Of a stretch of 64,000 nucleotides of DNA, positions 15,103 to 64,000 are shown in pieces. The position numbers and the translations under genes were made by a program. The notes beneath the pieces are model-generated. The model made no database searches. It saw only the letters and a list, made by a program, of their open reading frames with translations, and was not told where the DNA came from. The stretch comes from Felis catus (lineage: Eukaryota). How positions within the stretch are numbered: the first letter of the stretch is position 1; each line of letters starts with the position of its first letter. The DNA lies in the NCBI RefSeq assembly GCF_018350175.1, contig NC_058368.1:85872001-85936000 (forward strand), read 5' to 3'.

Positions 15103-15546
15103 ACTTCAAGTTTCATAGCATTGGGGTGATAAAAGATGCACAGAGTGATCTGACTCATTTCATCTCAGTGAGGCCTGAGATGTTATCTATTCTGGAGAAT
15201 GTCCCTAGTTCACTTGAAAAAAATGGACTATCTCAAAATAAAGGCTTTTTTCTTTCCCCCAAGCAAAGAACACCATTAAAAAATGAAAACCTAGTGACAG
15301 GGAATAGAAAATTGCAATCATAAATGTGTTAAGGGACTAACATCTAAAAAATATAATCAAATCATTCAATTCAATATCAAAACCTCAAACAGCCCAACTT
15401 AAAAATGTAGAAAATCTAGGATTAGATTTTTCAAAAAAATAAATAAATAAACATACATATGGCCCACAGTCCCATGAAAATATTTTAACCTGTAGAAGTT
15501 TTAGTTTGACTTTGTAACTTATTTGTGTTCTTTTTTCTTCTTCAAG

Positions 15547-15567
15547 GTAAACTCCAGGAAAAATATG
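15547..15567 (+). CDS. Heptad micro-exon A1, (G)KLQEKY
   Basis: Pyrimidine tract and caag acceptor; GTAAACTCCAGGAAAAATATG; gtaagt donor. Confidence 0.72.
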
Positions 15568-16643
15568 GTAAGTCATTTATTACCTCCTTATATTTATCAG
15601 ATTTATCACAGTACCTAGAGCTCAGGGGTTTCTTCTTTTTTAAGCATAGATTTCCAAGGAAAACAGTCAGTAAAAATAGAAGGAAATAAATACCAATTAG
15701 GAATCTGGGATTGTGTATTCCCTTCATTTGTCTTCATTAGCTTGTTCAAGTGTCCATGACCTCTGTTGGGTCATTGTGCTTATAAACCCTTGAGGTTTGC
15801 CAAGGTATCTTTGATTCTACAGAGAGGACACGCTGGTTAATACCTGGGCAAAGTAGAAAAGCAAGGTCTGCAGCAAACCCACCAGGAATCCTGAACAAGC
15901 ACATGGCACTACATTTCAAAGCAGAGCACAGCCTGGTCCACCATCCAAATGTCTACTAAAGTTAGCTATTCTCACTTTGTGTTGGTTAGATTGCAGTGTC
16001 CCTTTTACTTGCTAATCTGCTTTCACTGGAATTGAGAAAAGGGAGCTTGTGTCAAATGCACCTGTGGAACCTTTTTTCTCTTCTGCATTTTCAAAACATC
16101 CTCATGTATTGAGGATTCTTTCTAGCCTCCTGACCCCCTCACATTTTAAAATCTTTTCTCATGTGCTGCAGATGAGTTTCCAAGGTATGAATTGGTGTTT
16201 GTATTACCGTCAGTGTATGCCCCCTTTAAAGTGTCAGGGAAAAAGTTCGTCTCTCTATGCAAAGAATTCTTCTTGGCATGAGCGATGAAGACTGAGTCAC
16301 TGTTTCAGGTTATTCCTGACTCTGGATATATTCCGCACCCAAAGGCTCATGGATCCTGTCCCAGTCTCTTGAGGCACAGATCCCATGTGTAATCTCGATG
16401 AACTTTTTTGGGGGAATAGCCTATCATGAGCTCCACACAATCAACAGGTGGAGGGGCATGGACTGATTTATTTCTTATACACAAGACCTGCTTCTTTTCC
16501 CCTCTTCGCTAGCTCTTATTTTCACCTATTGCTAAATATCATACCAAGTCAGGCAAGAAAGACTTGAGTAAAATCTGTTTCTTTAGAAATTCTTCCATAC
16601 ATGCTTTATTGAATGCATTATTATTTATCTTGGTTTTACACAG

Positions 16644-16664
16644 AACTCTTATTTAAACAGAAAG
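16644..16664 (+). pseudogene. Heptad micro-exon B1, (E)LLFKQK, donor mutated GT>GA (same at 28819-28839, 40999-41019, 53179-53199)
   Basis: Homologous to 9130-9150; acceptor intact but followed by gagagt instead of gtgagt. Confidence 0.6.
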
Positions 16665-17274
16665 GAGAGTAGTTTTTGTTTCCATTTAGAGGCAAACATC
16701 ATAGAAAAATATACTCGATCAACTAAAATTTAGCAAACGATTTCCATATCATAAACATTTTGTTCAACTGGCCTACTTCTATAAGATTAGCTACCAGTTG
16801 AAACTATGTTGTGTTTGGTAACACTATAAATTATAGGCTGTGAAACCAATTGTCATTTAAACAAAGTCACACTGTGGCATCTTTGTTGGAAGATTTCACC
16901 TGTGTTTAAATATTTGTTTTTAAGGTCCCAGGAAAGTATTGAGATATTCCTTTATGATGTTTTCTACTATGACTTCTATAATGCATGTCCATATCTCAAT
17001 TTTGAACTTCTCCTGGGTTTCTGCTAATTCTTGACTTCTTTGTTATTAAATAGTTATTAATGATAACTTGTACATTCTATGGTAAGATGACAACCAAAAT
17101 ATCACAGTCTAGTTTTGGTTCGTTGAAAGTCTTTACATTTTTCTGCATTATATGTCAAACTGTTAAATATGATTTGCATAAGCTTTGATATTCTGTATCC
17201 ATATTTTATGTTTTTGTTTTGATTTTTGATTTTTTTTTTTTACCTTTTGACCTTGTTACTTAAGAGAGCGTTAG

Positions 17275-17503
17275 TTTTTTTTTTCTTTTTAATATTTTTT
17301 AACGTTTATTTATTTTTGAGACAGAGAGAGACAGAGCATGAACGGGGGAGGGTCAGAGAGAGGGGGAGACACAGAATCTGAAACAGGCTCCAGGCTCTGA
17401 GCGGTCAGCACAGAGCCCGATGCGGGGCTCGAACTCATGGACCGCGAGATCATGACCTGAGCTGAAGTCGGACGCTTAACCGACTGAGCCACCCAGGCGC
17501 CCC
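17275..17503 (-). mobile_element. Young cat-type CAN-SINE inserted at the tail of an older SINE
   Basis: Near-consensus CpG-rich body ending ccaggcgcccc; absent from copy 0. Confidence 0.92.
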
Positions 17504-17708
17504 AATTTTTTAATATTCATTTAATTTCATTTGAGAGAAATCATAAGAGAGAAGGGGAGGGGCAGAGAAAGAGGGATAGAACGGATCTCAAGCAGGCTCT
17601 GTGCTGTGAGTGCAGAGCTATGGGAACTCTAACTCACAGACCGTGAGATCATGTCCTGAGCTGAAGTCCAGAGTCAGATGCTCAAGTGACTGAGCTGCCA
17701 AGGTGCCC
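17504..17708 (-). mobile_element. Older CAN-SINE (present in every unit)
   Basis: Paralogue of 9790-9993. Confidence 0.8.
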
Positions 17709-18453
17709 TAGGCGCATGCTTCTTAGTGATTTTATCTCTGTGTCTTTGTACTTGTTTTTCTCTATTCCTGAAATACTTTATTTCTGTGCTCATGTCACAA
17801 TTAACTCTGCTTTCCCTGTGGGAACTTGGTGAACGATCACGACCACAGAGAGGGATCTGAGTACTTTATGGAATCCCACAGCCATGAGATCTCTCGTTAC
17901 TGCTTTACATGGTGCTTTGTGCAGGTGACAGGTCAGAGTTCTGTGTCCTCCTTTACTGAGAGAGCCTGATCCCTGCAGAGCTAAGGGCGGCCAGTCCACA
18001 AATATCTGTTGAGTGGAAGAAATGATTTTTATTCATATTTTTTGTCATTTTCTGTTTGTTTTCCTCCTTGTTTATCTATATTATATAAGAAAAGAGAACA
18101 AGAGTTCTATTGCTATCCTGTTCGATGGCTTAAAGATCACATAATACCTAACTTGTACAGAATCACTTAGGTGAAAATTAATCTCTTACATTGACTTCTT
18201 CTCATATTTTTCTGAACCTCATGTCTTTGGACATACACCTCTGGACCAGGTGAGGCAAAGTGAAGAATCCTGTCCTGGAGCTGCCAGTAATGGGCTTGCC
18301 CAGGAGACTTCCAGTTAGGCTCTACGTGACATCAAGACAACCATGTGGAGGGTGGATTTCTTATCCCATGCAAGGATACAAATGGGGGTGGGAGTTGGGA
18401 GGAGGTACTGTCCAGGAAACATACTATATTATTGCTTACTTAAGACACTTCTC

Positions 18454-18670
18454 GGGGCGCCTGGGTGGCTCAAGTCCCTTGGGCATCTGACATCGACTCA
18501 GGTCCTGATCACAGGGTTTGTGAGTGGGAACCCTGATTCAGGCTCTGTGCTGACAGGTTGGAGACTGTAGCCTGCTTCAGATTCTGTGTCCCTCTCCCTC
18601 TGCCCTTTCCTCGCTTGCACTCTCTCCTCTGCCTCTCTCTCTCCAAAATAAATAAACCTTTTTCTTTTTA
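18454..18670 (+). mobile_element. CAN-SINE (present in every unit)
   Basis: ggggcgcctgggtggctca head, CT tract, aaataaataaa tail; paralogue of 11187-11425. Confidence 0.85.
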
Positions 18671-19522
18671 AATAATGTAACTTCTCAAAACAGGCCTAGG
18701 GAAATCATTTGCTGACTCCTTGAAATACCAAAAAAAAGTTACTGTTTTGTGTTTGAGGGTAAAATCCATGAGGCATTCCATTTCACCCTATGTCTGCTGC
18801 CATGTAGAGTTTATTCTGGAGGACAAATCAGCATGAGTTCAGATTAATTTAAGATACAGTTGGGAGGTTTCCACAACTGATGACTAAACAGCCTATGGTT
18901 AGGACATTTTAAGGTGTGTATCAGGAAACCACCTACCTATTGCTCAAACTCCAAAACATATGTATTGAATTTTTTTGGTTGTTCACATTAAGGATTCATT
19001 ACTTGAGCTGAGTATGGTAAAGATACCACCTTCTCAATGCAAGGTCGGTAAAACATACTGTCATTCTGAGAAAATCCTCTGTTCTCAGTATTTTTTTTTT
19101 CCTTTTCCTTTTCTACTTATCAGTTTCCAGATATTATAAATGATCTTGTGCGAAAATAAGGTACTCAAGGACAGTTTCAGACTACCTTCTTATCTTGGAA
19201 ATAATGGGTAAAATTTGTGGGTATTTGCACCTATTTTCCCTAATTTTTGGACCTCACCCAAAAGAGACCTTTTGTAATATTCTGTTTTATGTCTATATAA
19301 ACACATATAAAAGCCAGATAGCTTTTTAGATTGTGTTATTTATTATTATTATTAATATTCAGTACATAAATTGCTCTTTCTATGTCAGAGAAATATACTG
19401 GATCGTCAGCTTTCTGGGTCTCAGTTTTCAAATGAGAACCAAGTTCCAGGACAGATTTTCCATTGACAGTGATAGGAGGACACTTTCTAACAGACTTTTG
19501 TTTTGTTTGTTTCTTTATATAG

Positions 19523-19543
19523 CAAAACTAGAAGAAGAGAACG
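19523..19543 (+). CDS. Heptad micro-exon F1, (A)KLEEEN
   Basis: ttctaac branch-like site, long T-rich tract and tag acceptor; CAAAACTAGAAGAAGAGAACG; weaker gtacgc donor. Confidence 0.6.
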
Positions 19544-20064
19544 GTACGCCCTATTTAGTTTTCAACATTCCACCCTTGATGTTCTTTCATTTTAATAAAA
19601 CAACAAAATACAGACATTGCATTTATGACCCAAACGCGTTTAGAAGCAGGTAATGTATCCTTCTGCTATTTTTAAAAACGTAACCTAAGTATTCCTAAGA
19701 CAAGGAATGATGTAGGCCTAAATGGAGAAGAATGCGATGCATCATGTGGTGAGTTCAGGGCTGGGACTCAGGTGTTAAATCTGCCCCATTCAGTGAGGGC
19801 GGTCATCCTTTCTGCATGTAGTAATTAGCTACCTATTTCATACTCAGTTCTTTAGAAACACTGAGGAAAGAAGACTCTCTTTTGCTATGGAACTTTCTAC
19901 CTTACGACAGATGCAAATTCCACATTCAAATAATAAAAGTAAAACAAATATGGAATATGTTATAGAAAAGGATTCTTGATGCTATGAAGACATAAAATAG
20001 AGTGGACTTATTCATGGGATTGTGGATTTGCTGAAAAGCAGCAATGAAGATGAGGCAAGTGGTA

Positions 20065-23000
20065 TTTCTTTAATATGAAATTTATTATCAAATTGGTTCC
20101 CATACAACACCCAGTGTTCATCCCAACAAGTACCCTCCTCAATGCCCATCACCCAATTTCACCGCCCTCCAACCCCCCATCAACCCTCAGTTTATCCTCA
20201 GTTTTTAACAGCCTCTTATGGCTTGCCTTCCTCCCTTTCTAACTTTTTTCCCCTTCCCCTCACCCCCCCCCAATAGTCTTCTGTTACGTATCTCAGGAAC
20301 CACATAAGAGTGAAAACATATGGCATCTGTCTTTCTCTGTATGACTTATTTCACTTAGCCTAACAGTATCCAGTTCCATCCACATTGCTAAAAAAGGCCA
20401 TATTTCATTCCTTCTCATTGCCACGTAGTATTCCATTGTATATAGAAACCACAACTTCTTTATCCATTCATCAGTTGATGGACGTTTAGTCTCTTTCCAT
20501 AATTTGGCTATTGTTGAAAGTGATGCTATAAACATGGGGGTAGAAGTGTCCCTATGCATCAGCACCCCTGTGTCCCTTGGATAAATTTCTAGGAATGCTA
20601 TTGCTGGGTATAGGGTAGATCTATTTTTAATGTTTTGAGGAACCTCCACACTGTTTTCCAGAGAGGTTGTATCAGTTTGCATTTCCACCAACAGGGCAAG
20701 AGGGTCCCCGTTTCTCCACATCCTCTCCAGCATCTATAGTCTCCTGATTTGTTCATTTAGGCCACTCTGGCAGGCATGAGGTGATATCTCACTGTAGTTT
20801 TGATTTGTATTTAAATGATGATTACTGACTTTGAGCATCTTTTCATGTGTCTGATGGCCACCTAGATGTCTTCTTTAGAAAAGTGTCTAATCATGTCTTC
20901 TGTCTATTTCCTCACTGGATTATTTGCTTCTCAGGTGTGGAATTTGGTGAGTTTTTTTTTTTTTTTTTAATATAGATTTTAGATACTAGCCCTTTATCCT
21001 ATAAGTCATTTGCAAATATCTTTTTCCCACTCCATAGGTTGCCCTTTGTGGTTTTGATTTGTATTTCCCTGATGAGGAGTGACATTGAGCATCTTTTCAT
21101 GTGCCTGTTGGCCATCTGGATGTCTCTTTTAGAGAAGTGTCTATTAATGTCTTCTTCCCATTTCTTCACTGGATTATTTGTTTTTCGGGTGTGGAGTATG
21201 GTGAGTTCTTTATAGATATTGGAGACTAGCCCTTTGTCCGATGTGTCATTTGGAAATATCTTTTCCCGTTCCGTTGGTTGCCTTTTAGTTTTGCTGATTG
21301 TCTCCTTTGCAGTGCAGAAGGTATTCGTCTTCCTGAGGTCCCAATAGTCATTTTTTTTGCTTTTAATTCCCTTGCCTTTGGAGATGTGTCAAGTAAGAAA
21401 TTGTTGAGGCTGAGGTCGGAGAAGCTTTTTCCTGCTTTCTCCTCTAGGGGTTTGATGGTTCCCTGCTGAACATTCAGGTCCTTCATCCATTTTCAATTTA
21501 TTATTGTGAATAGTGTAAGAAAGTGTTCAGTTTCATCCTTCTGTATGTTGCTGTCCAGTTTTCCCAACACCATTTGTTAAAGAGACTGCCTTTCTTTAAT
21601 TGGAGATTCCTTCCTGCTTTGTCAAAGATTAGTTGGCCATACTTTTGTGGGTCCAATTCTGGAGTCTCTAATATATTCCATTGGTGTATGTGTCTGTTAT
21701 TGTGCCAATACCATGCTGTCTTGATGATTACAGCTTTGCATTGGAGGCTAAAGTCTGGGATTGTGATGCCTCCCACTTTGGTCTGCTTCTTAAATATTAC
21801 TTAGGTTATTCCAGGTCTCTTGTGGTTCCCTACAAATTTTAGGATTCCTTGTTCTAGCTTAGAGAACAATGTTGGCGTAATTTTCATTGGGATTTCATTG
21901 AATGTGTGGATTGATTTGGGTAGTATCGACATTTTAACAATATTTATTCTTCCAATCCATGAACACGGAATGTTTTTCCATTTCTTTGTATATTCTTCAA
22001 TTTCCTTCAAGAGCTTTCTACACTTTTCAGCATACAGACCTTTCACATTTTTTGGTGAGGTTTATTCCTAGGTATTTTACGATTCTTGTAATTTTGAATG
22101 GGATAAGTTTCATTCTTTGTCTTTCCGTTACTTCATTTTTAATGTATAATAATGCAACTTATTTCTGTACATTGATTTTTTTTATCCTGCGACTTTGCTG
22201 AATTAATGTATCAGTTCTAGCAGGCTTTTGGTGGAGTCTATTAGGTTTTCCATGTCATCTGCAAAAAGTGAAAGCGTGACTTCATCTTTGCCTTTTTTTA
22301 TGACTTTGATTCCTTTTGTTGTCTGATTGCTGATGCTGGAACTTCCAACACCATATTAAACAAGAGCGGTGAGAGTAGATATCCCTGACGTGTTCCTGAT
22401 CTCAGGGAGGAAGCTCTCAGTTTTCCCCCATTGAGGATGTTATTAGCTCTGGGTTTTTGGTAATTGCCTTTTATGATGTTTAAGTATGTTCCTTCTATCC
22501 GACTTTCTCGAGGGTTTTTATTAAGAAAGGATGCTGAATTTTGTCAAATGCTTTTTCTGCATCGATTGACAGGATCATATGGTTCTTTTCTTTTCATTTA
22601 TTAATGTGATGTATCACATTGATTGATTTGAGAATGTTGAGCCAGCCCTGCAGTCCAGGAATGAATCCCACTTGATCGTGGTGGATAATATTTTTTATAT
22701 GCTGTTGAATTTGGTTTGCTAGTATCTTGTTGAGAATTTTTGCATGCATATTCAATAGGAATTTTGGCCTCTAGTTCTCTTTTATTGCTGGGTCTCAGTC
22801 TGTCTTGGGGATCAAAGTAATGCTGGCTTCATAGAATGAGTCTGGAAGTTTTCCTTCTCTTTCTATATTTTTGAAAATCTTGAGAAGGATAGGTATTATC
22901 TCTACGTTAAATGACTTGTAGAATTCCCCAGGGAAGACTTCTGGCCCTGGACTCTTATTTGTTGGGAGATTTTAGATAACTGATTCAATTTATTCGCTGG

Positions 23001-24598
23001 TTATGGGTCTTTTCAAGTTTTCTAGTTCGTCCTGTTTGAGTTTGGGAAGTGTGTGGGTGCGTAGGAATGTGTCCGTTTCTTCCAGCTTGTCCAGTTTGTT
23101 GGCATATAGTTTTTTTGTAGTATTCCCTGATAATTGCTTGTATTTCTGAGGGATTGGTTATAATAGTTCAATTTTAATTAATGATTTTATCTATTTGGGT
23201 CTTCTCCCTTTTCTTTTTGAGATGTGTGGCTAGAGGTTTATCAATTGTTCATTTTTCAGAAAATATACTCTTGGTTTCATTGATCTACTACAGTTTTTTT
23301 TTTTTTTTTTAGATTCTATATAGTTTATTTCTGCTGTGATTTTTATTTCTCTTCTTCTTCTGGGTTTGGGTGTCTTTGCTGTTCTGCTTCTATTTCCTTT
23401 AGGTCTGCTGTTAGATTTTGTATGTGGGATTTTTCTTGTTTCTTGGGAAAGGCCTGGATTGCAATGTGTTTTCCTATCAGGACTGCCTCTGCTGTATCCC
23501 AAAAACTGTTGGATTGTTGTATTTTCATTTTAATTTGTTTCCATACATTTTTAATTTCTTCTCTAATTGCCTGGTTGACACATTCATTCTTTAGTAGGGT
23601 GTTCTTTAACCACCATGATTTTAGAGGTTTTCCAGGCTTTTTCCTGTAGTTGATTTCAAGTTTCATAGCATTGTCCTCTGAAAGTGTGCATGATATGTTC
23701 TCAATTCTTTATACTTATTAAGGGCTGATTTGTGTCCCGGTATGTGATCTATCTTGGAAAATGTTCCATGTGCACTGGAGAAGAAAGTATATTTTGTCAC
23801 TTTGGGATGCAGAGTTCTAAATATATCTGCCAAGTCCATCTGACCCAATGTATCATTCAGGGCTCTTGTTTCTTTGTTGATCCTGGTAGAGATGATCTAT
23901 TCATTGTTGTATGTGGGGTATTAAAGACCCTGCAGTTACCACATTCTTATCATTAAAGTTGCTTATGTTTGTGATTAATTGTTTTATATATTTGGGGGTT
24001 TCTGTATTCGGCGCATAGACATTTATGATTGTTAGCTCTTCCTGATGGATAGACTCTGTAATAATTATATAATGACCTTCTTCATTTCTTGTTACAGCCT
24101 TTAATTTAAAGTCTAGTTTGTCTGATATAATTATGGCTACTCCAGCTTTCTTTTGACTTCCAGGGGCATGATAAATAGTTCTCCATCACCCACTTTCAAT
24201 CTGAAAGCGTTCCCAGGTCTGAAATGAGTCTCTTATGGACAACAAATAGATGAGTCTTGTTTTTTATCCATTCTGACACCCTATGACTTTTGACTGGAGC
24301 ATTCATTCCATTTACATTAAGTGTTATTATTCAGTGTTAAAGATATGGGTTTGGAGTCATTGTGATGTCTGTAGGTTTCATGCTTGCAGTGATGTCTCTG
24401 GTACCGTGTGGTGCTTACAACATTTCACTCACAGAGTCCCCCTTAGAATCTCTTGTAGGGCTGGTTTAGTGTGATGAATTCTTTCAGTTTTTGTTTGTTT
24501 GGGAAAACCTTTATCTCTCCTATTCTGAATGACAGCCTTGTTGAATAAAGGATTCTGGGCTGCATTTTTTTTTTCCCTACTGATCACATTGTAGAATT
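20065..24598 (-). mobile_element. 5'-truncated carnivore LINE-1 (ORF1 C-terminus, disrupted ORF2, 3' UTR), unit 1
   Basis: ORF2 peptides GGITIPDF...KTAWYW, KKWKNIPCSWIGRINIVKMSILPK and FFSSAHGTFSKIDH; ORF1 end TKPALQEILRGTL; many frameshifts. Confidence 0.93.
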
Positions 24599-26875
24599 CA
24601 TGTTGGTGGCATAAATATTTACAACTGTGAGATCTACTTGTTGGATAGACCACGTCACTTTGATATAGTATCCTTTGTCATTTCTTGTTACTGTCTTTGG
24701 TTTAATGTCTACTCTGCCTGAGATAAGTATTGCTACTCTGGCTTTCTTTCCACAGGCATTGGCGTGATAAGTATTTATCCCTCTGTCCCTTCCCATTCAA
24801 TCTGCAGGCATTGTGAGGTCTTAAATGAGTCTCTTATAGACAGCATGTAGAAAGGTCTTGTTTTTTTTTTTCCTCTATTGTTTTTGTTTTTATTCTTTAC
24901 TGATACTATATGTCTTTTGATTGGAGCACATCCTACACTTACATTCAGAATAAATCTATATACAGGTATATACATGTATTTAGTGTCATTTTAATACTTG
25001 TTTTGTTGTCTCACCTGGATGTGTTCTCTTATCCTTTTTGTTTGTCACTTTTTTTCTTCCTTCCCACTTAAACAGTCCCCTTTAATATTGTGCACAGGGC
25101 TGGTGTAGTGGACATAAAGGTTCAGCTCCTTTAGTTTTTGTTTCTCTTGGAAAGTCTTTATCTGCTTCTGTTCTATATGATAACCTTGTTGTATAGAGTA
25201 TACTAGGTGATGAGTTTCCCCGTCAGGACATTGAATACACCATGGCTTACCAAGTTTCTGTCGAGAGATCTGCAGCCAACCTTGTGGTTCTTCCCTTGTA
25301 ATGTAGGCAATTCTTTTCTTTCTTGCTAATTGGATGTTTGTTCTTTGTCAGAATATTTTACACATTTAACTACAATATTTTGGGTTTAGGTCTGCTTTGG
25401 TGGATTTCTGTGGGAGTTTTCTGTGCCTCCTGGATTCGGATGGCTGTTTCACTCCCCAGATTTGGGAAGTGTTAGCCTATTATTTATGTAGACTACCCTT
25501 ATGTTCCCTTTTATGTCTCTTCTTCTGCAACTCTGGTGATACAAATTTAAGTTTCATAGATACACTGAGTTTCCTAAGTCTATTTTCAGGCTTCCCTGAA
25601 GACTTCTTTTATTTTTTCAAGCAGAGCAGGAATCTTATGATGGCTGCTTTAAATTCTCCATCTGGTATAGTACTTTTCTTGGTTTTACATAAACCTCTGG
25701 CTTTTATCTTATATTCTTTCATTTCAGAGGGTTCCTCAGTCCTGGCATTGTCTATACATCTTTCTGTCTTCTTATTGGTGTTCGGAAAGCCTGTTTCATT
25801 TCCTGCTCCTTAGAGTAGTTGCGTTATGAAGACGAGGTCAAATGGTGTCCAGGTCCTGATGCTTTAAAGAGTGTCTCTCGAGTGACCTACATACACTAGG
25901 CTCCTGTGTTTTGGCTGCACTGCCTTTCAGGCCAGGCATCTTCAAAGGTTGTCCTTGCCTGCTGGTGCAGTGCTTGAACCTTGGTGAGAGTGTGGCAAAT
26001 TTTATGTAGGTGTGCTCTGGTGTACAATTCAATGAGACTCATGTGGTTTCCACTAGGACTGAAGCCTTGCAGAACAAAGAGTTTGGGAGACGTGGTTGAC
26101 AGCATTTCTGCTCATCACCTGAGGAAGAAGACTGCCTGGCTGGGACTGAGACACACTTGACAGAGAAGGGGAATAGTCATTGAACACAGGGCTGTGGACT
26201 TGCTGTAAGCAGGAGAGGCAGCCAGTCTCAGCACTGTGTACTTCCTAAACATCCTTCTCTGTCTTTTCTGAAAGTATGGGGGAGTGTAGTGTCACCAACC
26301 AACTTCTTTGTCTCCAGTTGAGGGGTTATTGCATCTTTTGAGAAGCACTCTCAGAGGAGCATTGAAAGTCCCCCTTTGTGCCTCCAGTGTTGGTGTGTTT
26401 CAGATCCTCATCTTCATGCTGTCTGTGTCTAAGTTGTTTGCCTGACTTTCAGCCAGGAGCATTGCAGTGCCTGCTGGCCTCCATCCCAGCCAGGCACGCT
26501 GATCTTTAAACCTCCAGACTTTAAGCCCTGTTCATCAAAAGGCCTCAAGGAAATCAACCCCTCTGCTTGTCCCAGCCAATGGCTTTTAAGAAGTGTCCAT
26601 CTCATTCATTCCACTGTGTACTCCTAGAACTTTTTGTGTTTCTCTGCAACCAAGATCGTCTCCCCTCCATAGCACCTAGGAAACATGTGGCCCCAAACCA
26701 CATCTCTGCATTTCCTACTATCCTTGATGTGTCCTCTTTCCTCCCTCAAGGATGAGCTTGTTTTATCAGTACTCAAGATTAATTCTTGGGTACTGAGAAT
26801 GATTTGACAGTTTTCTAGTGTGTTTGAGGAAGGAGAAAAACCTAGGGTCCTCCTACTATGCAACCACCTCAGCTC
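24599..26875 (-). mobile_element. 5' part of an older LINE-1 (5' UTR, deleted ORF1, ORF2 start), unit 1
   Basis: Second copy of the endonuclease N-terminus (KKARVAILISGRVDIK...VNIYATN), a second ORF1 end, and a 5' UTR-like terminus gggtcctcctact. Confidence 0.8.
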
Positions 26876-52078: not shown

Positions 52079-52099
52079 GTAAACTCCAGGAAAAATATG
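52079..52099 (+). CDS. Heptad micro-exon A4, (G)KLQEKY
   Basis: Same sequence and splice sites as A2. Confidence 0.72.
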
Positions 52100-53807
52100 G
52101 TAAGTCATTTATTACCTCCTTATATTTATCAGATTTAGCACAGTACCTAGAGCTCAGGGGTTTCTTCTTTTTTAAGCATAAATTTCCAAGGAAAACAGTC
52201 AGTAAAAATAGAAGGAAATAAATACCAATTAGGAATCTGGCATTGTGTATTCCCTTCCCCTTTGTCTTCATTAGCTTGTTCAAGTGTCCATGACCTCTGT
52301 TGGGTCATTGTGCTTATAAACCCTTGAGGTTTGCCAAGGTATCTTTGATTCTACAGAGAGGACACGCTGGTTAATACCTGGGCAAAGTAGAAAAGCAAGG
52401 TCTGCAGCAAACCCACCAGGAATCCTGAACAAGCACATGGCACTACATTTCAAAGCAGAGCACAGCCTGGTCCATAATCCAATTGTCTACTAAAGTTAGC
52501 TATTCTCACTTTGTGTTGGTTAGATTGCAGTGTCCCTCTTACTTGCTAATCTGCTTTCACTGGAATTGAGAAAAGGGAGCTTGTGTCAAATGCACCTGTG
52601 GAACCTTTTTTCTCTTCTGCATTTTCAAAACATCCTCATGTATTGAGGATTCTTTCTAGCCTCCTGACCCCCTCACATTTTAAAATCTTTTCTCATGTGC
52701 TGCAGATGAGTTTCCAAGGTATGAATTGGTGTTTGTATTACCGTCAGTGTATGCCCCCTTTAAAGTGTCAGGGAAAAAAGTTCGTCTCTCTATGCAAAGA
52801 ATTCTTCTTGGCATGAGCGATGAAGACTGAGTCACTGTTTCAGGTTATTCCTGACTCTGGATATATTCCGCACCCAAAGGCTCATGGATCCTGTCCCAGT
52901 CTCTTGAGGCACAGATCCCATGTGTAATCTCGATGAACTTTTTTGGGGGAATAGCCTATCATGAGCTCCACACAATCAACAGGTGGAGGGGCATGGACTG
53001 ATTTATTTCTTATACACAAGACCTGCTTCTTTTCCCCTCTTCTCTAGCTCTTATTTTCACCTATTGCTAAATATCATACCAAGTCAGGCAAGAAAGACTT
53101 GAGTAAAATCTGTTTCTTTAGAAATTCTTCCATACATGCTTTATTGAATGCATTATTATTTATCTTGGTTTTACACAGAACTCTTATTTAAACAGAAAGG
53201 AGAGTAGTTTTTGTTTCCATTTAGAGGCAAACATCATAGAAAAATATACTCGATCAACTAAAATTTAGCAAACGATTTCCACATCATAAACATTTTGTTC
53301 AACTGGCCTACTTCTATAAGATTAGCTACCAGTTGAAACTATGTTGTGTTTGGTAACACTATAAATTATAGGCTGTGAAACCAATTGTCATTTAAACAAA
53401 GTCACACTGTGGCATCTTTGTTGGAAGATTTCACCTGTGTTTAAATATTTGTTTTTAAGGTCCCAGGAAAGTATTGAGATATTCCTTTATGATGTTTTCT
53501 ACTATGACTTCTATAATGCATGTCCATATCTCAATTTTGAACTTCTCCTGGGTTTCTGCTAATTCTTGACTTCTTTGTTATTAAATAGTTATTAATGATA
53601 ACTTGTACATTCTATGGTAAGATGACAACCAAAATATCACAGTCTAGTTTTGGTTCGTTGAAAGTCTTTACATTTTTCTGCATTATATGTCAAACTGTTA
53701 AATATGATTTGCATAAGCTTTGATATTCTGTATCCATATTTTATGTTTTTGTTTTGATTTTTGATTTTTTTTTTACCTTTTGACCTTGTTACTTAAGAGA
53801 GCGTTAG

Positions 53808-54037
53808 TTTTTTTTTTTCTTTTTAAGATTTTTTAACGTTTATTTATTTTTGAGACAGAGAGAGACAGAGCATGAACGGGGGAGGGTCAGAGAGAGAGGG
53901 AGACACAGAATCTGAAACAGGCTCCAGGCTCTGAGCGGTCAGCACAGAGCCCGATGCGGGGCTCGAACTCATGGACCGCGAGATCATGACCTGAGCTGAA
54001 GTCGGACGCTTAACCGACTGAGCCACCCAGGCGCCCC
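53808..54037 (-). mobile_element. Young CAN-SINE, unit 4
   Basis: Copy of 17275-17503. Confidence 0.9.
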
Positions 54038-56064
54038 AATTTTTTAATATTCATTTAATTTCATTTGAGAGAAATCATAAGAGAGAAGGGGAGGGGCAGA
54101 GAAAGAGGGATAGAACGGATCTCAAGCAGGCTCTGTGCTGTGAGTGCAGAGCTATGGGAACTCTAACTCACAGACCGTGAGATCATGTCCTGAGCTGAAG
54201 TCCAGAGTCAGATGCTCAAGTGACTGAGCTGCCAAGGTGCCCTAGGCGCATGCTTCTTAGTGATTTTATCTCTGTGTCTTTGTACTTGTTTTTCTCTATT
54301 CCTGAAATACTTTATTTCTGTGCTCATGTCACAATTAACTCTGCTTTCCCTGTGGGAACTTGGTGAACGATCACGACCACAGAGAGGGATCTGAGTACTT
54401 TATGGAATCCCACAGCCATGAGATCTCTCGTTACTGCTTTACATGGTGCTTTGTGCAGGTGACAGGTCAGAGTTCTGTGTCCTCCTTTACTGAGAGAGCC
54501 TGATCCCTGCAGAGCTAAGGGCGGCCAGTCCACAAATATCTGTTGAGTGGAAGAAATGATTTTTATTCATATTTTTTTGTCATTTTCTGTTTGTTTTCCT
54601 CCTTGTTTATCTATATTATATAAGAAAAGAGAACAAGAGTTCTATTGCTATCCTGTTCGATGGCTTAAAGATCACATAATACCTAACTTGTACAGAATCA
54701 CTTAGGTGAAAATTAATCTCTTACATTGACTTCTTCTCATATTTTTCTGAACCTCATGTCTTTGGACATACACCTCTGGACCAGGTGAAGCAAAGTGAAG
54801 AATCCTGTCCTGGAGCTGCCAGTAATGGGCTTGCCCAGGAGACTTCCAGTTAGGCTCTACGTGACATCAAGACAACCATGTGGAGGGTGGATTTCTTATC
54901 CCATGCAAGGATACAAATGGGGGTGGGAGTTGGGAGGAGGTACTGTCCAGGAAACATACTATATTATTGCTTACTTAAGACACTTCTCGGGGCGCCTGGG
55001 TGGCTCAAGTCCCTTGGGCATCTGACATCGACTCAGGTCCTGATCACAGGGTTTGTGAGTGGGAGCCCTGATTCAGGCTCTGTGCTGACAGGTTGGAGAC
55101 TGTAGCCTGCTTCAGATTCTGTGTCCCTCTCCCTCTGCCCTTTCCTCGCTTGCACTCTCTCCTCTGCCTCTCTCTCTCCAAAATAAATAAACCTTTTTCT
55201 TTTTAAATAATGTAACTTCTCAAAACAGGCCTAGGGAAATCATTTGCTGACTCCTTGAAATACCAAAAAAAAAAAAAAAGTTACTGTTTTGTGTTTGAGG
55301 GTAAAATCCATGAGGCATTCCATTTCACCCTATGTCTGCTGCCATGTAGAGTTTATTCTGGAGGACAAATCAGCATAAGTTCAGATTAATTTAAGATACA
55401 GTTGGGAGGTTTCCACAACTGATGACTAAACAGCCTATGGTTAGGACATTTTAAGGTGTGTATCAGGAAACCACCTACCTGTTGCTCAAACTCCAAAACA
55501 TATGTATTGAATTTTTTTGGTTGTTCACATTAAGGATTCATTACTTGAGCTGAGTATGGTAAAGATACCACCTTCTCAATGCAAGGTCGGTAAAACATAC
55601 TGTCATTCTGAGAAAATCCTCTGTTCTCAGTATTTTTTTTTTCCTTTTCCTTTTCTACTTATCAGTTTCCAGATATTATAAATGATCTTGTGCGAAAATA
55701 AGGTACTCAAGGACAGTTTCAGACTACCTTCTTATCTTGGAAATAATGGGTAAAATTTGTGGGTATTTGCACCTATTTTCCCTAATTTTTGGACCTCACC
55801 CAAAAGAGACCTTTTGTAATATTCTGTTTTATGTCTATATAAACACATATAAAAGCCAGATAGCTTTTTAGATTGTGTTATTTATTATTATTATTAATAT
55901 TCAGTACATAAATTGCTCTTTCTATGTCAGAGAAATATACTGGATCGTCAGCTTTCTGGGTCTCAGTTTTCAAATGAGAACCAAGTTCCAGGACAGATTT
56001 TCCATTGACAGTGATAGGAGGACACTTTCTAACAGACTTTTGTTTTGTTTGTTTCTTTATATAG

Positions 56065-56085
56065 CAAAACTAGAAGAAGAGAACG
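56065..56085 (+). CDS. Heptad micro-exon F4, (A)KLEEEN
   Basis: Same sequence and splice sites as F2. Confidence 0.65.
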
Positions 56086-56605
56086 GTACGTCCTATTTAG
56101 TTTTCAACATTCCACCCTTGATGTTCTTTCATTTTAATAAAACAACAAAATACAGACATTGCATTTATGACCCAAACGCGTTTAGAAGCAGGTAATGTAT
56201 CCTTCTGCTATTTTTTAAAACGTAACCTAAGTATTCCTAAGACAAGGAATGATGTAGGCCTAAATGGAGAAGAATGCGATGCATCATGTGGTGAGTTCAG
56301 GGCTGGGACTCAGGTGTTAAATCTGCCCCATTCAGTGAGGGCGGTCATCCTTTCTGCATATAGTAATTAGCTACCTATTTCATACTCAGTTCTTAAGAAA
56401 CACTGAGGGAAAAAGACTCTCTTTGCTATGCAACTTGCTACCTTACGACAGATGCAAATTCCACATTCAAATAATAAAAGTAAAACAAATATGGAATATG
56501 TTATAGAAAAGGATTCTTGATGCTATGAAGACATAAAATAGAGTGGACTTATTCATGGGATTGTGGATTTGCTGAAAAGCAGCAATGAAGATGAGGCAAG
56601 TGGTA

Positions 56606-59600
56606 TTTCTTTAATATGAAATTTATTATCAAATTGGTTCCCATACAACACCCAGTGTTCATCCCAACAAGTACCCTCCTCAATGCCCATCACCCAATTT
56701 CACCGCCCTCCAACCCCCCATCAACCCTCAGTTTATCCTCAGTTTTTAACAGCCTCTTATGGCTTGCCTTCCTCCCTTTCTAACTTTTTTCCCCTTCCCC
56801 TCACCCCCCCCCCCAATAGTCTTCTGTTACGTATCTCAGGAACCACATAAGAGTGAAAACATATGGCATCTGTCTTTCTCTGTATGACTTATTTCACTTA
56901 GCCTAACAGTATCCAGTTCCATCCACATTGCTAAAAAAGGCCATATTTCATTCCTTCTCATTGCCACGTAGTATTCCATTGTATATAGAAACCACAACTT
57001 CTTTATCCATTCATCAGTTGATGGACGTTTAGTCTCTTTCCATAATTTGGCTATTGTTGAAAGTGATGCTATAAACATGGGGGTAGAAGTGTCCCTATGC
57101 ATCAGCACCCCTGTGTCCCTTGGATAAATTTCTAGGAATGCTATTGCTGGGTATAGAGTAGATCTATTTTTAATGTTTTGAGGAACCTCCACACTGTTTT
57201 CCAGAGAGGTTGTACCAGTTTGCATTTCCACCAACAGGGCAAGAGGGTCCCCGTTTCTCCACATCCTCTCCAGCATCTATAGTCTCCTGATTTGTTCATT
57301 TAGGCCACTCTGGCAGGCATGAGGTGATATCTCACTGTAGTTTTGATTTGTATTTAAATGATGATTACTGACTTTGAGCATCTTTTCATGTGTCTGATGG
57401 CCACCTAGATGTCTTCTTTAGAAAAGTGTCTAATCATGTCTTCTGTCTATTTCCTCACTGGATTATTTGCTTCTCAGGTGTGGAATTTGGTGAGTTTTTT
57501 TTTTTTTTTTTAATATAGATTTTAGATACTAGCCCTTTATCCTATAAGTCATTTGCAAATATCTTTTTCCCACTCCATAGGTTGCCCTTTGTGGTTTTGA
57601 TTTGTATTTCCCTGATGAGGAGTGACATTGAGCATCTTTTCATGTGCCTGTTGGCCATCTGGATGTCTCTTTTAGAGAAGTGTCTATTAATGTCTTCTTC
57701 CCATTTCTTCACTGGATTATTTGTTTTTCGGGTGTGGAGTATGGTGAGTTCTTTATAGATATTGGAGACTAGCCCTTTGTCCGATGTGTCATTTGGAAAT
57801 ATCTTTTCCCGTTCCGTTGGTTGCCTTTTAGTTTTGCTGATTGTCTCCTTTGCAGTGCAGAAGGTATTCGTCTTCCTGAGGTCCCAATAGTCATTTTTTT
57901 TGCTTTTAATTCCCTTGCCTTTGGAGATGTGTCAAGTAAGAAATTGTTGAGGCTGAGGTCGGAGAAGCTTTTTCCTGCTTTCTCCTCTAGGGGTTTGATG
58001 GTTCCCTGCTGAACATTCAGGTCCTTCATCCATTTTCAATTTATTATTGTGAATAGTGTAAGAAAGTGTTCAGTTTCATCCTTCTGTATGTTGCTGTCCA
58101 GTTTTCCCAACACCATTTGTTAAAGAGACTGCCTTTCTTTAATTGGAGATTCCTTCCTGCTTTGTCAAAGATTAGTTGGCCATACTTTTGTGGGTCCAAT
58201 TCTGGAGTCTCTAATATATTCCATTGGTGTATGTGTCTGTTATTGTGCCAATACCATGCTGTCTTGATGATTACAGCTTTGCATTGGAGGCTAAAGTCTG
58301 GGATTGTGATGCCTCCCACTTTGGTCTGCTTCTTAAATATTACTTAGGTTATTCCAGGTCTCTTGTGGTTCCCTACAAATTTTAGGATTCCTTGTTCTAG
58401 CTTAGAGAACAATGTTGGCGTAATTTTCATTGGGATTTCATTGAATGTGTGGATTGATTTGGGTAGTATCGACATTTTAACAATATTTATTCTTCCAATC
58501 CATGAACACGGAATGTTTTTCCATTTCTTTGTATATTCTTCAATTTCCTTCAAGAGCTTTCTACACTTTTCAGCATACAGACCTTTCACATTTTTTGGTG
58601 AGGTTTATTCCTAGGTATTTTACGATTCTTGTAATTTTGAATGGGATAAGTTTCATTCTTTGTCTTTCCGTTACTTCATTTTTAATGTATAATAATGCAA
58701 CTTATTTCTGTACATTGATTTTTTTTATCCTGCGACTTTGCTGAATTAATGTATCAGTTCTAGCAGGCTTTTGGTGGAGTCTATTAGGTTTTCCATGTCA
58801 TCTGCAAAAAGTGAAAGCGTGACTTCATCTTTGCCTTTTTTTATGACTTTGATTCCTTTTGTTGTCTGATTGCTGATGCTGGAACTTCCAACACCATATT
58901 AAACAAGAGCGGTGAGAGTAGATATCCCTGACGTGTTCCTGATCTCAGGGAGGAAGCTCTCAGTTTTCCCCCATTGAGGATGTTATTAGCTCTGGGTTTT
59001 TGGTAATTGCCTTTTATGATGTTTAAGTATGTTCCTTCTATCCGACTTTCTCGAGGGTTTTTATTAAGAAAGGATGCTGAATTTTGTCAAATGCTTTTTC
59101 TGCATCGATTGACAGGATCATATGGTTCTTTTCTTTTCATTTATTAATGTGATGTATCACATTGATTGATTTGAGAATGTTGAGCCAGCCCTGCAGTCCA
59201 GGAATGAATCCCACTTGATCGTGGTGGATAATATTTTTTATATGCTGTTGAATTTGGTTTGCTAGTATCTTGTTGAGAATTTTTGCATGCATATTCAATA
59301 GGAATTTTGGCCTCTAGTTCTCTTTTATTGCTGGGTCTCAGTCTGTCTTGGGGATCAAAGTAATGCTGGCTTCATAGAATGAGTCTGGAAGTTTTCCTTC
59401 TCTTTCTATATTTTTGAAAATCTTGAGAAGGATAGGTATTATCTCTACGTTAAATGACTTGTAGAATTCCCCAGGGAAGACTTCTGGCCCTGGACTCTTA
59501 TTTGTTGGGAGATTTTAGATAACTGATTCAATTTATTCGCTGGTTATGGGTCTTTTCAAGTTTTCTAGTTCGTCCTGTTTGAGTTTGGGAAGTGTGTGGG

Positions 59601-62600
59601 TGCGTAGGAATGTGTCCGTTTCTTCCAGCTTGTCCAGTTTGTTGGCATATAGTTTTTTTGTAGTATTCCCTGATAATTGCTTGTATTTCTGAGGGATTGG
59701 TTATAATAGTTCAATTTTAATTAATGATTTTATCTATTTGGGTCTTCTCCCTTTTCTTTTTGAGATGTGTGGCTAGAGGTTTATCAATTGTTCATTTTTC
59801 AGAAAATATACTCTTGGTTTCATTGATCTACTACAGTTTTTTTTTTTTTTTTTAGATTCTATATAGTTTATTTCTGCTGTGATTTTTATTTCTCTTCTTC
59901 TTCTGGGTTTGGGTGTCTTTGCTGTTCTGCTTCTATTTCCTTTAGGTCTGCTGTTAGATTTTGTATGTGGGATTTTTCTTGTTTCTTGGGAAAGGCCTGG
60001 ATTGCAATGTGTTTTCCTATCAGGACTGCCTCTGCTGTATCCCAAAAACTGTTGGATTGTTGTATTTTCATTTTAATTTGTTTCCATACATTTTTAATTT
60101 CTTCTCTAATTGCCTGGTTGACACATTCATTCTTTAGTAGGGTGTTCTTTAACCACCATGATTTTAGAGGTTTTCCAGGCTTTTTCCTGTAGTTGATTTC
60201 AAGTTTCATAGCATTGTCCTCTGAAAGTGTGCATGATATGTTCTCAATTCTTTATACTTATTAAGGGCTGATTTGTGTCCCGGTATGTGATCTATCTTGG
60301 AAAATGTTCCATGTGCACTGGAGAAGAAAGTATATTTTGTCACTTTGGGATGCAGAGTTCTAAATATATCTGCCAAGTCCATCTGACCCAATGTATCATT
60401 CAGGGCTCTTGTTTCTTTGTTGATCCTGGTAGAGATGATCTATTCATTGTTGTATGTGGGGTATTAAAGACCCTGCAGTTACCACATTCTTATCATTAAA
60501 GTTGCTTATGTTTGTGATTAATTGTTTTATATATTTGGGGGTTTCTGTATTCGGCGCATAGACATTTATGATTGTTAGCTCTTCCTGATGGATAGACTCT
60601 GTAATAATTATATAATGACCTTCTTCATTTCTTGTTACAGCCTTTAATTTAAAGTCTAGTTTGTCTGATATAATTATGGCTACTCCAGCTTTCTTTTGAC
60701 TTCCAGGGGCATGATAAATAGTTCTCCATCACCCACTTTCAATCTGAAAGCGTTCCCAGGTCTGAAATGAGTCTCTTATGGACAACAAATAGATGAGTCT
60801 TGTTTTTTATCCATTCTGACACCCTATGACTTTTGACTGGAGCATTCATTCCATTTACATTAAGTGTTATTATTCAGTGTTAAAGATATGGGTTTGGAGT
60901 CATTGTGATGTCTGTAGGTTTCATGCTTGCAGTGATGTCTCTGGTACCGTGTGGTGCTTACAACATTTCACTCACAGAGTCCCCCTTAGAATCTCTTGTA
61001 GGGCTGGTTTAGTGTGATGAATTCTTTCAGTTTTTGTTTGTTTGGGAAAACCTTTATCTCTCCTATTCTGAATGACAGCCTTGTTGAATAAAGGATTCTG
61101 GGCTGCATTTTTTTTTTCCCTACTGATCACATTGTAGAATTCATGTTGGTGGCATAAATATTTACAACTGTGAGATCTACTTGTTGGATAGACCACGTCA
61201 CTTTGATATAGTATCCTTTGTCATTTCTTGTTACTGTCTTTGGTTTAATGTCTACTCTGCCTGAGATAAGTATTGCTACTCTGGCTTTCTTTCCACAGGC
61301 ATTGGCGTGATAAGTATTTATCCCTCTGTCCCTTCCCATTCAATCTGCAGGCATTGTGAGGTCTTAAATGAGTCTCTTATAGACAGCATGTAGAAAGGTC
61401 TTGTTTTTTTTTTCCTCTATTGTTTTTGTTTTTATTCTTTACTGATACTATATGTCTTTTGATTGGAGCACATCCTACACTTACATTCAGAATAAATCTA
61501 TATACAGGTATATACATGTATTTAGTGTCATTTTAATACTTGTTTTGTTGTCTCACCTGGATGTGTTCTCTTATCCTTTTTGTTTGTCACTTTTTTTCTT
61601 CCTTCCCACTTAAACAGTCCCCTTTAATATTGTGCACAGGGCTGGTGTAGTGGACATAAAGGTTCAGCTCCTTTAGTTTTTGTTTCTCTTGGAAAGTCTT
61701 TATCTGCTTCTGTTCTATATGATAACCTTGTTGTATAGAGTATACTAGGTGATGAGTTTCCCCGTCAGGACATTGAATACACCATGGCTTACCAAGTTTC
61801 TGTCGAGAGATCTGCAGCCAACCTTGTGGTTCTTCCCTTGTAATGTAGGCAATTCTTTTCTTTCTTGCTAATTGGATGTTTGTTCTTTGTCAGAATATTT
61901 TACACATTTAACTACAATATTTTGGGTTTAGGTCTGCTTTGGTGGATTTCTGTGGGAGTTTTCTGTGCCTCCTGGATTCGGATGGCTGTTTCACTCCCCA
62001 GATTTGGGAAGTGTTAGCCTATTATTTATGTAGACTACCCTTATGTTCCCTTTTATGTCTCTTCTTCTGCAACTCTGGTGATACAAATTTAAGTTTCATA
62101 GATACACTGAGTTTCCTAAGTCTATTTTCAGGCTTCCCTGAAGACTTCTTTTATTTTTTCAAGCAGAGCAGGAATCTTATGATGGCTGCTTTAAATTCTC
62201 CATCTGGTATAGTACTTTTCTTGGTTTTACATAAACCTCTGGCTTTTATCTTATATTCTTTCATTTCAGAGGGTTCCTCAGTCCTGGCATTGTCTATACA
62301 TCTTTCTGTCTTCTTATTGGTGTTCGGAAAGCCTGTTTCATTTCCTGCTCCTTAGAGTAGTTGCGTTATGAAGACGAGGTCAAATGGTGTCCAGGTCCTG
62401 ATGCTTTAAAGAGTGTCTCTCGAGTGACCTACATACACTAGGCTCCTGTGTTTTGGCTGCACTGCCTTTCAGGCCAGGCATCTTCAAAGGTTGTCCTTGC
62501 CTGCTGGTGCAGTGCTTGAACCTTGGTGAGAGTGTGGCAAATTTTATGTAGGTGTGCTCTGGTGTACAATTCAATGAGACTCATGTGGTTTCCACTAGGA

Positions 62601-63417
62601 CTGAAGCCTTGCAGAACAAAGAGTTTGGGAGACGTGGTTGACAGCATTTCTGCTCATCACCTGAGGAAGAAGACTGCCTGGCTGGGACTGAGACACACTT
62701 GACAGAGAAGGGGAATAGTCATTGAACACAGGGCTGTGGACTTGCTGTAAGCAGGAGAGGCAGCCAGTCTCAGCACTGTGTACTTCCTAAACATCCTTCT
62801 CTGTCTTTTCTGAAAGTATGGGGGAGTGTAGTGTCACCAACCAACTTCTTTGTCTCCAGTTGAGGGGTTATTGCATCTTTTGAGAAGCACTCTCAGAGGA
62901 GCATTGAAAGTCCCCCTTTGTGCCTCCAGTGTTGGTGTGTTTCAGATCCTCATCTTCATGCTGTCTGTGTCTAAGTTGTTTGCCTGACTTTCAGCCAGGA
63001 GCATTGCAGTGCCTGCTGGCCTCCATCCCAGCCAGGCACGCTGATCTTTAAACCTCCAGACTTTAAGCCCTGTTCATCAAAAGGCCTCAAGGAAATCAAC
63101 CCCTCTGCTTGTCCCAGCCAATGGCTTTTAAGAAGTGTCCATCTCATTCATTCCACTGTGTACTCCTAGAACTTTTTGTGTTTCTCTGCAACCAAGATCG
63201 TCTCCCCTCCATAGCACCTAGGAAACATGTGGCCCCAAACCACATCTCTGCATTTCCTACTATCCTTGATGTGTCCTCTTTCCTCCCTCAAGGATGAGCT
63301 TGTTTTATCAGTACTCAAGATTAATTCTTGGGTACTGAGAATGATTTGACAGTTTTCTAGTGTGTTTGAGGAAGGAGAAAAACCTAGGGTCCTCCTACTA
63401 TGCAACCACCTCAGCTC
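56606..63417 (-). mobile_element. Composite LINE-1, unit 4
   Basis: Copy of 20065-26875. Confidence 0.9.
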
Positions 63418-64000
63418 TGAAGCAGTTGACCTTGACAAGGAGGGAAAAGTTCGTTATCAGCTTCTTGGATTTATAGCATAATATTCCATAGTATAATATT
63501 CTTGTGTTGTATAAATAGGGTAATAGTATAATCTGTCATAGTAGAACATAAAGCTATGGCAAGGAAATGGTACTTTTACTGGGACTAAAGTAGACAGAGG
63601 GATCAATACAAGAGAAATGAAACTGCAAAAAGAGTTCCACATTTGTACGGTGAATAAATCAATGACAAAGGAAGCAAGAAAATGTAATGGGAAAAATGCC
63701 CCTTCATTAAATGATGTTGAGAACACTGGTCACAGATATTTACAAAATATTGATATTTGACCACTTTCCCACCATATGCTATAGTAAACTCATAATGGGT
63801 GAAAACATAAATCTAAGATATGAAGTATAAAACCTTTAAATAAAACCTAAGAAGTAAGTTCTTTGGCAACCTCCTGAGCAATATTTACTTGAAACTGGTT
63901 CCTCAGACAAGGATAGAAAAAACAGTAACAAATTATTCGGACTATCTCAAAATAAAGGCTTTTTTCTTTCCCCCAAGCAAAGAACACCATTAAAAAATGA

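What the first reader, a model, noticed from the sequence alone, without database searches (positions are those of the whole stretch)
15225..64000. Very homogeneous ~12.18-kb tandem array (macrosatellite-like), probable copy-number variant
Seen: four full units plus the start of a fifth. Differences I could spot among units 2-4 are homopolymer lengths (for example the A run near 30905/43085/55265 and the C run near 32445/44625/56805). Inference: very recent expansion or active homogenisation by unequal crossover. More than half of each unit is dead L1, so the micro-exons are the only evident coding cargo.
Basis: partly seen in the sequence, partly recalled or inferred. Interest (0 to 1): 0.7.

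Follow-up and report, generated by a model that had tools for sequence, protein, structure and literature searches.

The report
Cat 12-kb array of gene-tail fragments
A 12-kilobase stretch holding the decayed tail end of a gene plus dead jumping-element DNA is repeated head to tail at least four times in this cat-family genome assembly; it looks like an ordinary large tandem repeat kept uniform by recombination, and its true copy number and any function are unproven.

Summary
The array is in the sequence: four units of 12,172-12,182 bp plus 62 bp of a fifth. Units 2-4 have no substitutions and only four one-base homopolymer differences. Unit 1 differs from the others at 33 sites, all in its first 5.45 kb. 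A much older copy of the non-L1 block (15% diverged) lies at 7917-12892. The duplication joint is about 60 bp upstream of the first micro-exon, not at 15225. So this is an old partial gene duplication whose inner units were recently homogenised or amplified. Each unit is 62% dead L1 and 38% a block of 21-nt phase-1 micro-exons plus a stop/poly(A) exon. It has no promoter or large exon, has broken splice sites and shows no sign of selection. The exons resemble butyrophilin-type heptad exons, but no search named the gene. The unit-2-type sequence is present in 12 DNA runs not marked as source (8 studies). Copy number above two and splicing could not be tested with reads. The scan has no look-alike on other DNA. 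Verdict: a probable new cat macrosatellite of a known kind.

The parts
428..7537 (-). Old endogenous retrovirus, broken; two LTRs (428-1192, 6758-7537) and a gag remnant; lies upstream of the first micro-exon and is not part of the repeat unit
   Evidence: LTR pair differs at 136 of 746 sites; Gag_p24 PF00607 E 1.9e-15 at 5424-6026 minus strand
7917..12903 (+). Older (parent) copy of the micro-exon block
   Evidence: 78-90% BLAST identity to the unit block; p-distance 0.151, K2P 0.17 over 4300 sites
7965..7985 (+). Micro-exon e1, 21 nt, phase 1, AG and GT intact (parent copy)
9130..9150 (+). Micro-exon e3, 21 nt, phase 1; intact here, donor GT changed to GA in units 1 and 2 and in the identical units 3-4
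12337..12357 (+). Micro-exon e7, 21 nt; acceptor AG lost in the parent copy, present in the units
12731..12903 (+). Candidate last exon e9: stop after 7 codons in phase 1 with an overlapping AATAAA; a second frame is open for 57 codons and ends at a strong donor in this copy only
12958..15224 (-).
   Evidence: 66-74% identity to the unit's L1; junction sequence
15225..27396 (+). Unit 1 (edge unit): first 5.45 kb diverged by 33 substitutions, last 6.7 kb without substitutions against units 2-4
15484..20066 (+). Unit 1 exon block (e1 15547-15567, e3 16644-16664, e7 19523-19543, candidate e8 19716-19748, e9 from 19911) with three SINEs
20067..24599 (-). Younger L1, 5'-truncated, broken (longest stop-free stretch 146 codons); inserted in the 3' part of e9
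   Evidence: L1 ORF2p matches E 2e-31 and 8e-27
24600..26900 (-). Older L1 5' part (second endonuclease domain, ORF1 remnant, 5' region)
   Evidence: ORF2p residues 62-120, E 5e-13; 64% identity to the younger L1 over 600 columns; ORF1 and 5' UTR labels are inferred
27035..27655 (+). Plus-strand L1 ORF2 fragment, continuous across 27396/27397 and cut at about 27655, where the exon block begins: the tandem duplication joint (also 15484, 39836, 52016)
   Evidence: 59% identity over 635 columns to the inverted younger L1, E 5e-32; a PDB search of one frame piece found nothing
27397..39576 (+). Unit 2 (exon block 27656-32246, e1 27719-27739)
39577..51756 (+). Unit 3 (exon block 39836-44425)
51757..63938 (+). 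Unit 4 (exon block 52016-56607)
63939..64000 (+). First 62 bp of a fifth unit; the array runs out of the window
   Evidence: identical to the first 62 bp of units 1 and 2

Best explanation
A real macrosatellite-type array made from a partial gene duplication. Step 1 (inferred): long ago the 3' end of a plus-strand micro-exon gene, probably a butyrophilin-like tail gene, was duplicated in tandem with its downstream L1s; the joint fuses a plus-strand L1 fragment to a point about 60 bp upstream of exon e1, so the copy has no promoter and no large exons. Step 2 (shown by presence in the units and absence in the parent block): the copy gained a SINE and a younger L1. Step 3 (inferred from the substitution map): the 12.18-kb copy multiplied and its inner units are kept identical by unequal crossover or conversion, with the last exchange point inside the 7.6-kb L1 tail of unit 1, while the left edge of unit 1 could not be overwritten and drifted. 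The cargo is most likely non-coding debris; the array's main effect is to be a copy-number-unstable stretch.
For: Shown: unit structure and identity. All 33 unit-1 substitutions lie left of 20672; chance of none in the last 6724 bp under even spread is 3e-12; 15 fall in one 800-bp window, reached by 5 of 5000 random placements. Of 25 unit-1/unit-2 differences that align to the parent block, 11 match it in unit 1, 11 in unit 2, 3 in neither, so two lineages diverged independently: at least two real copies. Unit-1 sequence holds only 0.833 of the unit-2 block's 31-mers, yet all 14 DNA or unlabelled rows hold 0.96-0.98; 12 of them, from 8 studies, are not marked as possible source. Decay: e3 donor lost in the units, e7 acceptor lost in the parent; candidate-exon identity 181 of 206 versus 3472 of 4099 elsewhere; among the six RNA rows that hold it, five are metatranscriptomes and the one ordinary transcriptome holds 0.22. 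Butyrophilin lead: 21-nt phase-1 exons; such short exons encode the tails of BTN and chicken BG proteins (PMC6790196, PMC4046983; passages); the window lies at least 85.6 Mb into the chromosome with NUP58, ATP7B, SCEL and ZNF608 and 0.7 Mb from an olfactory-receptor cluster (unchecked notes), and the HIST3/TRIM17 cluster is at A1:87.99 Mb in Felis_catus_9.0 (PMC13396413 supplement); that BTNL10 lies beside that cluster is my own knowledge.
Against: No read depth or spanning read was obtained, so the number of unit-2-type copies (three plus in the assembly) is unverified; differences confined to long homopolymers are also what long-read consensus error gives. No search named the gene; no Ig, transmembrane or B30.2 exon was seen in the window. 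Only e1, e3 and e7 look convincing; e2, e4, e5, e6 and e8 have poor acceptor or donor scores. The splice scores come from a crude matrix I wrote from general knowledge, with thresholds set. A 67%-identical unnamed homologue keeps the second frame of e9 open (P0002), which neutral drift would do only 4-14% of the time in simulation, a small point against pure debris.
Confidence: 0.62

Rival explanations
1. Only two (or three) unit copies exist; the assembler or scaffolder wrote the unit-2-type copy several times.
For: Units 2-4 have 0 substitutions; their four differences are one-base changes in 4 of the 10 homopolymer runs of 9 or more bases, typical of consensus error (own knowledge). Human macrosatellite monomers in one assembly were 99.3-99.7% identical, mostly through SNPs (PMC3018141, passages), less uniform than here.
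Against: Assemblers more often collapse identical repeats than multiply them (own knowledge). Unit 1's last 6.7 kb is also identical to units 2-4, a biological homogenisation signature.
Confidence: 0.2
2. The array is a working intragenic exon-block repeat: a butyrophilin-like gene upstream splices e1, e7 (and e8) from successive units, or picks one of several last exons, so copy number sets the length or end of a coiled-coil tail, as in chicken BG genes.
For: e1 keeps strong AG/GT sites in all five blocks; e1, e7 and e8 lengths (21, 21, 33) keep the frame. Strong 21-nt exon candidates: 2 in the parent block, reached by 0 of 300 shuffles; 1 in unit 2, reached by 2 of 300; 0 on the minus strand. 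The provirus and the large L1s are antisense to the exons, as expected inside a transcribed gene. BG tails have 13-36 such exons (PMC4046983, passages).
Against: A stop plus AATAAA exon closes the parent block before the array starts. Splice lesions occur in both block types; no conservation excess at exons. No organism-A ordinary transcriptome is among the listed holders (weak for 21-nt exons, which cannot give 31-mer matches once spliced).
Confidence: 0.12
3. The last exon e9 is coding in its second frame and belongs to an unannotated fast-evolving gene that is not butyrophilin-like; the units are dead copies of it.
For: 57 open codons from acceptor to a strong donor in the parent copy; unnamed homologue P0002 is open over the same span at 67% identity and ends at the same place.
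Against: P0001, P0002 and P0006 are unnamed calls on 1.0-1.4 kb contigs; only open frames enter such a library, so the test is biased. No full-length protein holds this segment among 1.84 billion representatives (three other hits are unrelated repeat proteins) or. Amino-acid divergence of 32% matches neutral drift.
Confidence: 0.06

Closest known systems
Human macrosatellites such as PRR20 (6.6 kb), ZAV (5.3 kb), TAF11-like (3.4 kb), RS447, D4Z4, DXZ4 (PMC3018141, passages)
   Same: Head-to-tail units of several kb at one locus, over 99% identical, carrying gene pieces and L1/SINE remnants.
   Different: Unit is about twice as long (12.18 kb), AT-rich (38% GC, CpG observed/expected 0.21, no CpG island) against 50-64% GC for the four arrays in that paper; it carries only a gene's 3' end; variation between individuals is not shown.
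Feline DXZ4 macrosatellite (PMC8662614 search listing; PMC11216403 passage)
   Same: Large tandem array in a cat genome that older assemblies resolve poorly.
   Different: X-linked and tied to hybrid sterility; this one is autosomal by its neighbours with no known function.
Butyrophilin/BTNL heptad exons and chicken BG cytoplasmic exons (PMC6790196, PMC4046983, passages)
   Same: Short 21-nt exons in one phase with charged, leucine-containing heptad-like translations.
   Different: No Ig, transmembrane or B30.2 exon seen here; BG genes expand as whole genes or single exons, not as a 12-kb L1-rich block; no sequence match was obtained.
Intragenic exon-block copy-number repeats such as LPA kringle IV-2 (recalled, not from a call)
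   Same: Near-identical multi-kb units each holding exons.
   Different: Those keep intact exons under an open frame; here each unit carries a stop/poly(A) exon and broken splice sites.

Membership tests
Macrosatellite (large VNTR) | Head-to-tail units of several kb at one locus | tested here: met
   4.0 units of 12.18 kb in the window
Macrosatellite (large VNTR) | High identity between units | tested here: met
   0 substitutions among units 2-4; 33 against unit 1
Macrosatellite (large VNTR) | Copies exist in the animal, not only in the assembly | tested here: inconclusive
   Two lineages of the unit are shown; copies beyond two rest on the assembly and a hint from run X5
Macrosatellite (large VNTR) | Copy number varies between individuals | not tested
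   No depth data obtained; the cat CNV map lists several CNV regions at A1 82-90.5 Mb in assembly 6.2, but the window could not be placed on them
Butyrophilin / BTNL genes | Short heptad exons after the transmembrane exon | tested here: inconclusive
   Three 21-nt phase-1 exons fit by size and phase; no transmembrane exon in the window; no homology hit
Butyrophilin / BTNL genes | IgV/IgC ectodomain exons | not testable with these tools
   Would lie upstream of the window; no genome is held
Butyrophilin / BTNL genes | B30.2 (PRY-SPRY) last exon (absent in some members) | tested here: not met
   No such family among 26 ORFs scanned with Pfam (26 of the 69 ORFs of 80 aa or more listed); the blocks end in a short stop/poly(A) exon followed by L1
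LINE-1 | ORF2p endonuclease and reverse-transcriptase homology | tested here: met
   RVT_1 below cut-off
LINE-1 (active) | Intact ORF1 and ORF2 | tested here: not met
   66-90 stops per frame, longest open stretch 146 codons

The most novel reading that the evidence does not exclude
A felid butyrophilin-like immune receptor gene whose cytoplasmic tail exons sit in a 12-kb macrosatellite, so that array length changes the number of heptad exons or alternative last exons between cats: a mammalian counterpart of the variable chicken BG tails, built by L1-assisted unequal crossover.
Probability: 0.1. Interest if true: 0.7.

Novelty: new member of a known kind. Interest (0 to 1): 0.32.

Why it matters
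If real, it is an undescribed (in the searches made here) large autosomal tandem array in cats, a likely hidden copy-number variant and a mapping trap near an olfactory-receptor cluster. It shows the history of such an array in one window: parent block, duplication joint, frozen edge unit and homogenised core. It would matter much more if the micro-exons were spliced into an immune receptor, which the evidence does not favour.

Tried and rejected
Whole genome: none held, so the rest of the array and the upstream exons could not be read. Read depth and splice joints were not obtained. Naming the gene failed: Pfam on 26 of 69 ORFs gave only gag and weak RT hits; word-index searches with the e9 second frame (longer proteins: 0 of 7 candidates), the e1 read-through frame (0 of 1) and the e9 alignment (2 of 348, both unnamed short calls); full HMMER scan (5 hits, two unnamed short homologues, three unrelated repeat proteins); ESM Atlas blank; metagenome and viral contigs empty. 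Rfam: no match in unit 2. PDB searches for ORF1 remnants and the plus-strand L1 piece gave nothing significant. Rejected: 15225 as the duplication joint (the L1 piece is continuous across 27396/27397); conversion of unit 1 by the parent block (11 versus 11 polarity); a CpG-island type array. Literature searches and passage searches in cat and tiger genome papers found no description of this array; the 2023 Nature Genetics paper on felid structural variation was seen only as a reference and its text and supplements may list it.
Full report
Observation. The array is in the sequence. Self-comparison shows near-perfect diagonals at multiples of about 12.18 kb. Cut at 15225, 27397, 39577, 51757 and 63939, the units are 12172, 12180, 12180 and 12182 bp, and the last 62 bp start a fifth. 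Units 2, 3 and 4 share every base except four one-base homopolymer differences, which fall in 4 of the 10 runs of nine or more identical bases in unit 2. The L1 share is 62%.

Unit 1 differs from units 2-4 at 33 substitutions and 16-18 gap columns. All 33 substitutions lie between 15345 and 20672, and none in the last 6724 bp (chance 3e-12 under even spread); they cluster further in two patches of about 2% (15 in 780 bp, 8 in 348 bp). Of the 25 differences that align to an older copy, 11 agree with it in unit 1, 11 in unit 2 and 3 in neither, so both versions evolved independently. That older copy of the non-L1 block lies at 7917-12892 and is 15% diverged (K2P 0.17, 4300 sites). With 0.86e-8 mutations per generation (PMC10786289, passage) these distances give roughly under 14,000 generations for units 2-4, 0.35-1.3 million for the left part of unit 1 and about 10 million for the parent block. 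These are rough figures.

Anatomy of a unit. A 4.59-kb block with micro-exons and three SINEs is followed by 7.59 kb of L1: a younger, 5'-truncated minus-strand L1 (ORF2p matches; longest open stretch 146 codons), the 5' part of an older minus-strand L1 with a second endonuclease domain, and a plus-strand L1 fragment. That fragment runs without a break across 27396/27397 and stops at about 27655, where homology to the parent block begins, about 60 bp upstream of exon e1. I read this as the duplication joint, and 15224/15225 as a later deletion that fused two L1 remnants (inference). One SINE and the younger L1 are in the units but not in the parent block. The unit is 38% GC, CpG-depleted, has no CpG island and no Rfam match.

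The cargo. Three 21-nt exons in phase 1 are convincing (e1, e3, e7). With a crude splice matrix written from general knowledge and thresholds set after a first look, strong 21-nt candidates number 2 in the parent block (0 of 300 shuffles reach this) and 1 in unit 2 (2 of 300), none on the minus strand. Five further candidates score poorly. A last exon has a stop after seven codons with an overlapping AATAAA. e1 is intact everywhere, e3 has lost its donor in the units, e7 its acceptor in the parent. Candidate exons are 88% identical between parent and unit (181 of 206) against 85% elsewhere (3472 of 4099), so there is no clear constraint (the e7 span in that count was one base off, corrected). 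No promoter-side, Ig, transmembrane or B30.2 exon was found. Short heptad exons are typical of butyrophilin and chicken BG tails (PMC6790196 and PMC4046983, passages). Earlier notes place the window at least 85.6 Mb into the chromosome with NUP58, ATP7B, SOHLH2, SCEL and ZNF608, 0.7 Mb from an olfactory-receptor cluster (unchecked). The HIST3/TRIM17 cluster maps to A1:87.99 Mb in Felis_catus_9.0 (PMC13396413, passages and supplement rows). That BTNL10 and BTNL9 lie in this stretch is my own knowledge. The family guess is therefore a lead at about even odds; every search failed to name the gene. One result points the other way: an unnamed 67%-identical homologue keeps a second frame of the last exon open, which neutral drift does in 4-14% of simulations, but only open frames enter that library.

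Is the array real? At least two copies are: the two independent lineages above each carry the joint. The unit-2-type sequence is not private to this assembly: unit 1 alone would explain 0.833 of its 31-mers, while the 14 DNA or unlabelled rows hold 0.96-0.98; leaving out the two marked as possible source, 12 rows from 8 studies remain (one of these studies also holds a possible source). No depth or spanning-read test was obtained, so the count of identical copies and any variation between animals stay open. The homopolymer-only differences cannot tell slippage from consensus error.

How it most likely works. Old partial duplication of a gene's 3' end; decay; then unequal crossover or conversion between misaligned units, using 12 kb of perfect homology, with the last exchange inside unit 1's L1 tail. 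This overwrites inner units and leaves the outer edge frozen. Unit structure, edge divergence and lesions are shown; order of events and crossover mechanism are inferred. Confidence 0.62. Rivals: assembly over-expansion of a two-copy locus (0.2), a working exon-block repeat in a butyrophilin-like gene (0.12), an unrelated fast-evolving gene (0.06).

Comparison with what is known. It works like human macrosatellites (PMC3018141, passages) and meets their unit and identity criteria, but is longer, AT-rich and carries only a gene tail; variability, a defining feature, is untested. Ten literature searches and passage searches in PMC11216403, PMC8006817, PMC6288940, PMC7581003 and PMC13047762 found no description of it. 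The cat CNV tables (PMC6288940 supplements S2 and S3, read whole) show several CNV regions at A1 82-90.5 Mb, which I could not match to the window. PMC12841164, PMC6017450 and PMC11969061 (passages) gave only general butyrophilin background. The 2023 Nature Genetics felid paper was seen only as a reference and may list the array. The scan holds no look-alike on other DNA.

Verdict. Observation confirmed, interpretation partly supported. A probable new member of a known kind with a readable history and probably dead cargo. Interest 0.32.

Noticed in passing
window 428-7537: Old broken endogenous retrovirus on the minus strand with LTRs 18% apart, gag remnant at 5424-6026 and env-like remnants near 1900-3140 (the env label is my impression, Pfam gave no such hit); it sits just upstream of the first micro-exon.
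   Followed up: partly
window 20793-21293: Inside the younger L1 a 250-bp stretch is present twice in tandem at 78% identity, suggesting a chimeric or twice-primed insertion.
   Followed up: no
window 10696-11145: About 450 bp present in the parent block and absent from all units, flanked by a short shared GAGGT motif; an 85-bp parent-only stretch also lies near 8885-8970.
   Followed up: no
window 12731-12903: Second frame open for 57 codons between an acceptor and a strong donor in the parent copy; unnamed homologues P0001 (98%) and P0002 (67%) keep it open.
   Followed up: partly
window 8579-8591 and copies: Exon-like 13-nt segment with a good acceptor and a moderate donor that would shift the frame if spliced; kept in both block types.
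   Followed up: partly
PMC13396413 supplement: The H3-4 copy listed beside TRIM17 is marked as a truncated pseudogene in cat, leopard, tiger and lynx rows; other rows for these species were not looked at.
   Followed up: no
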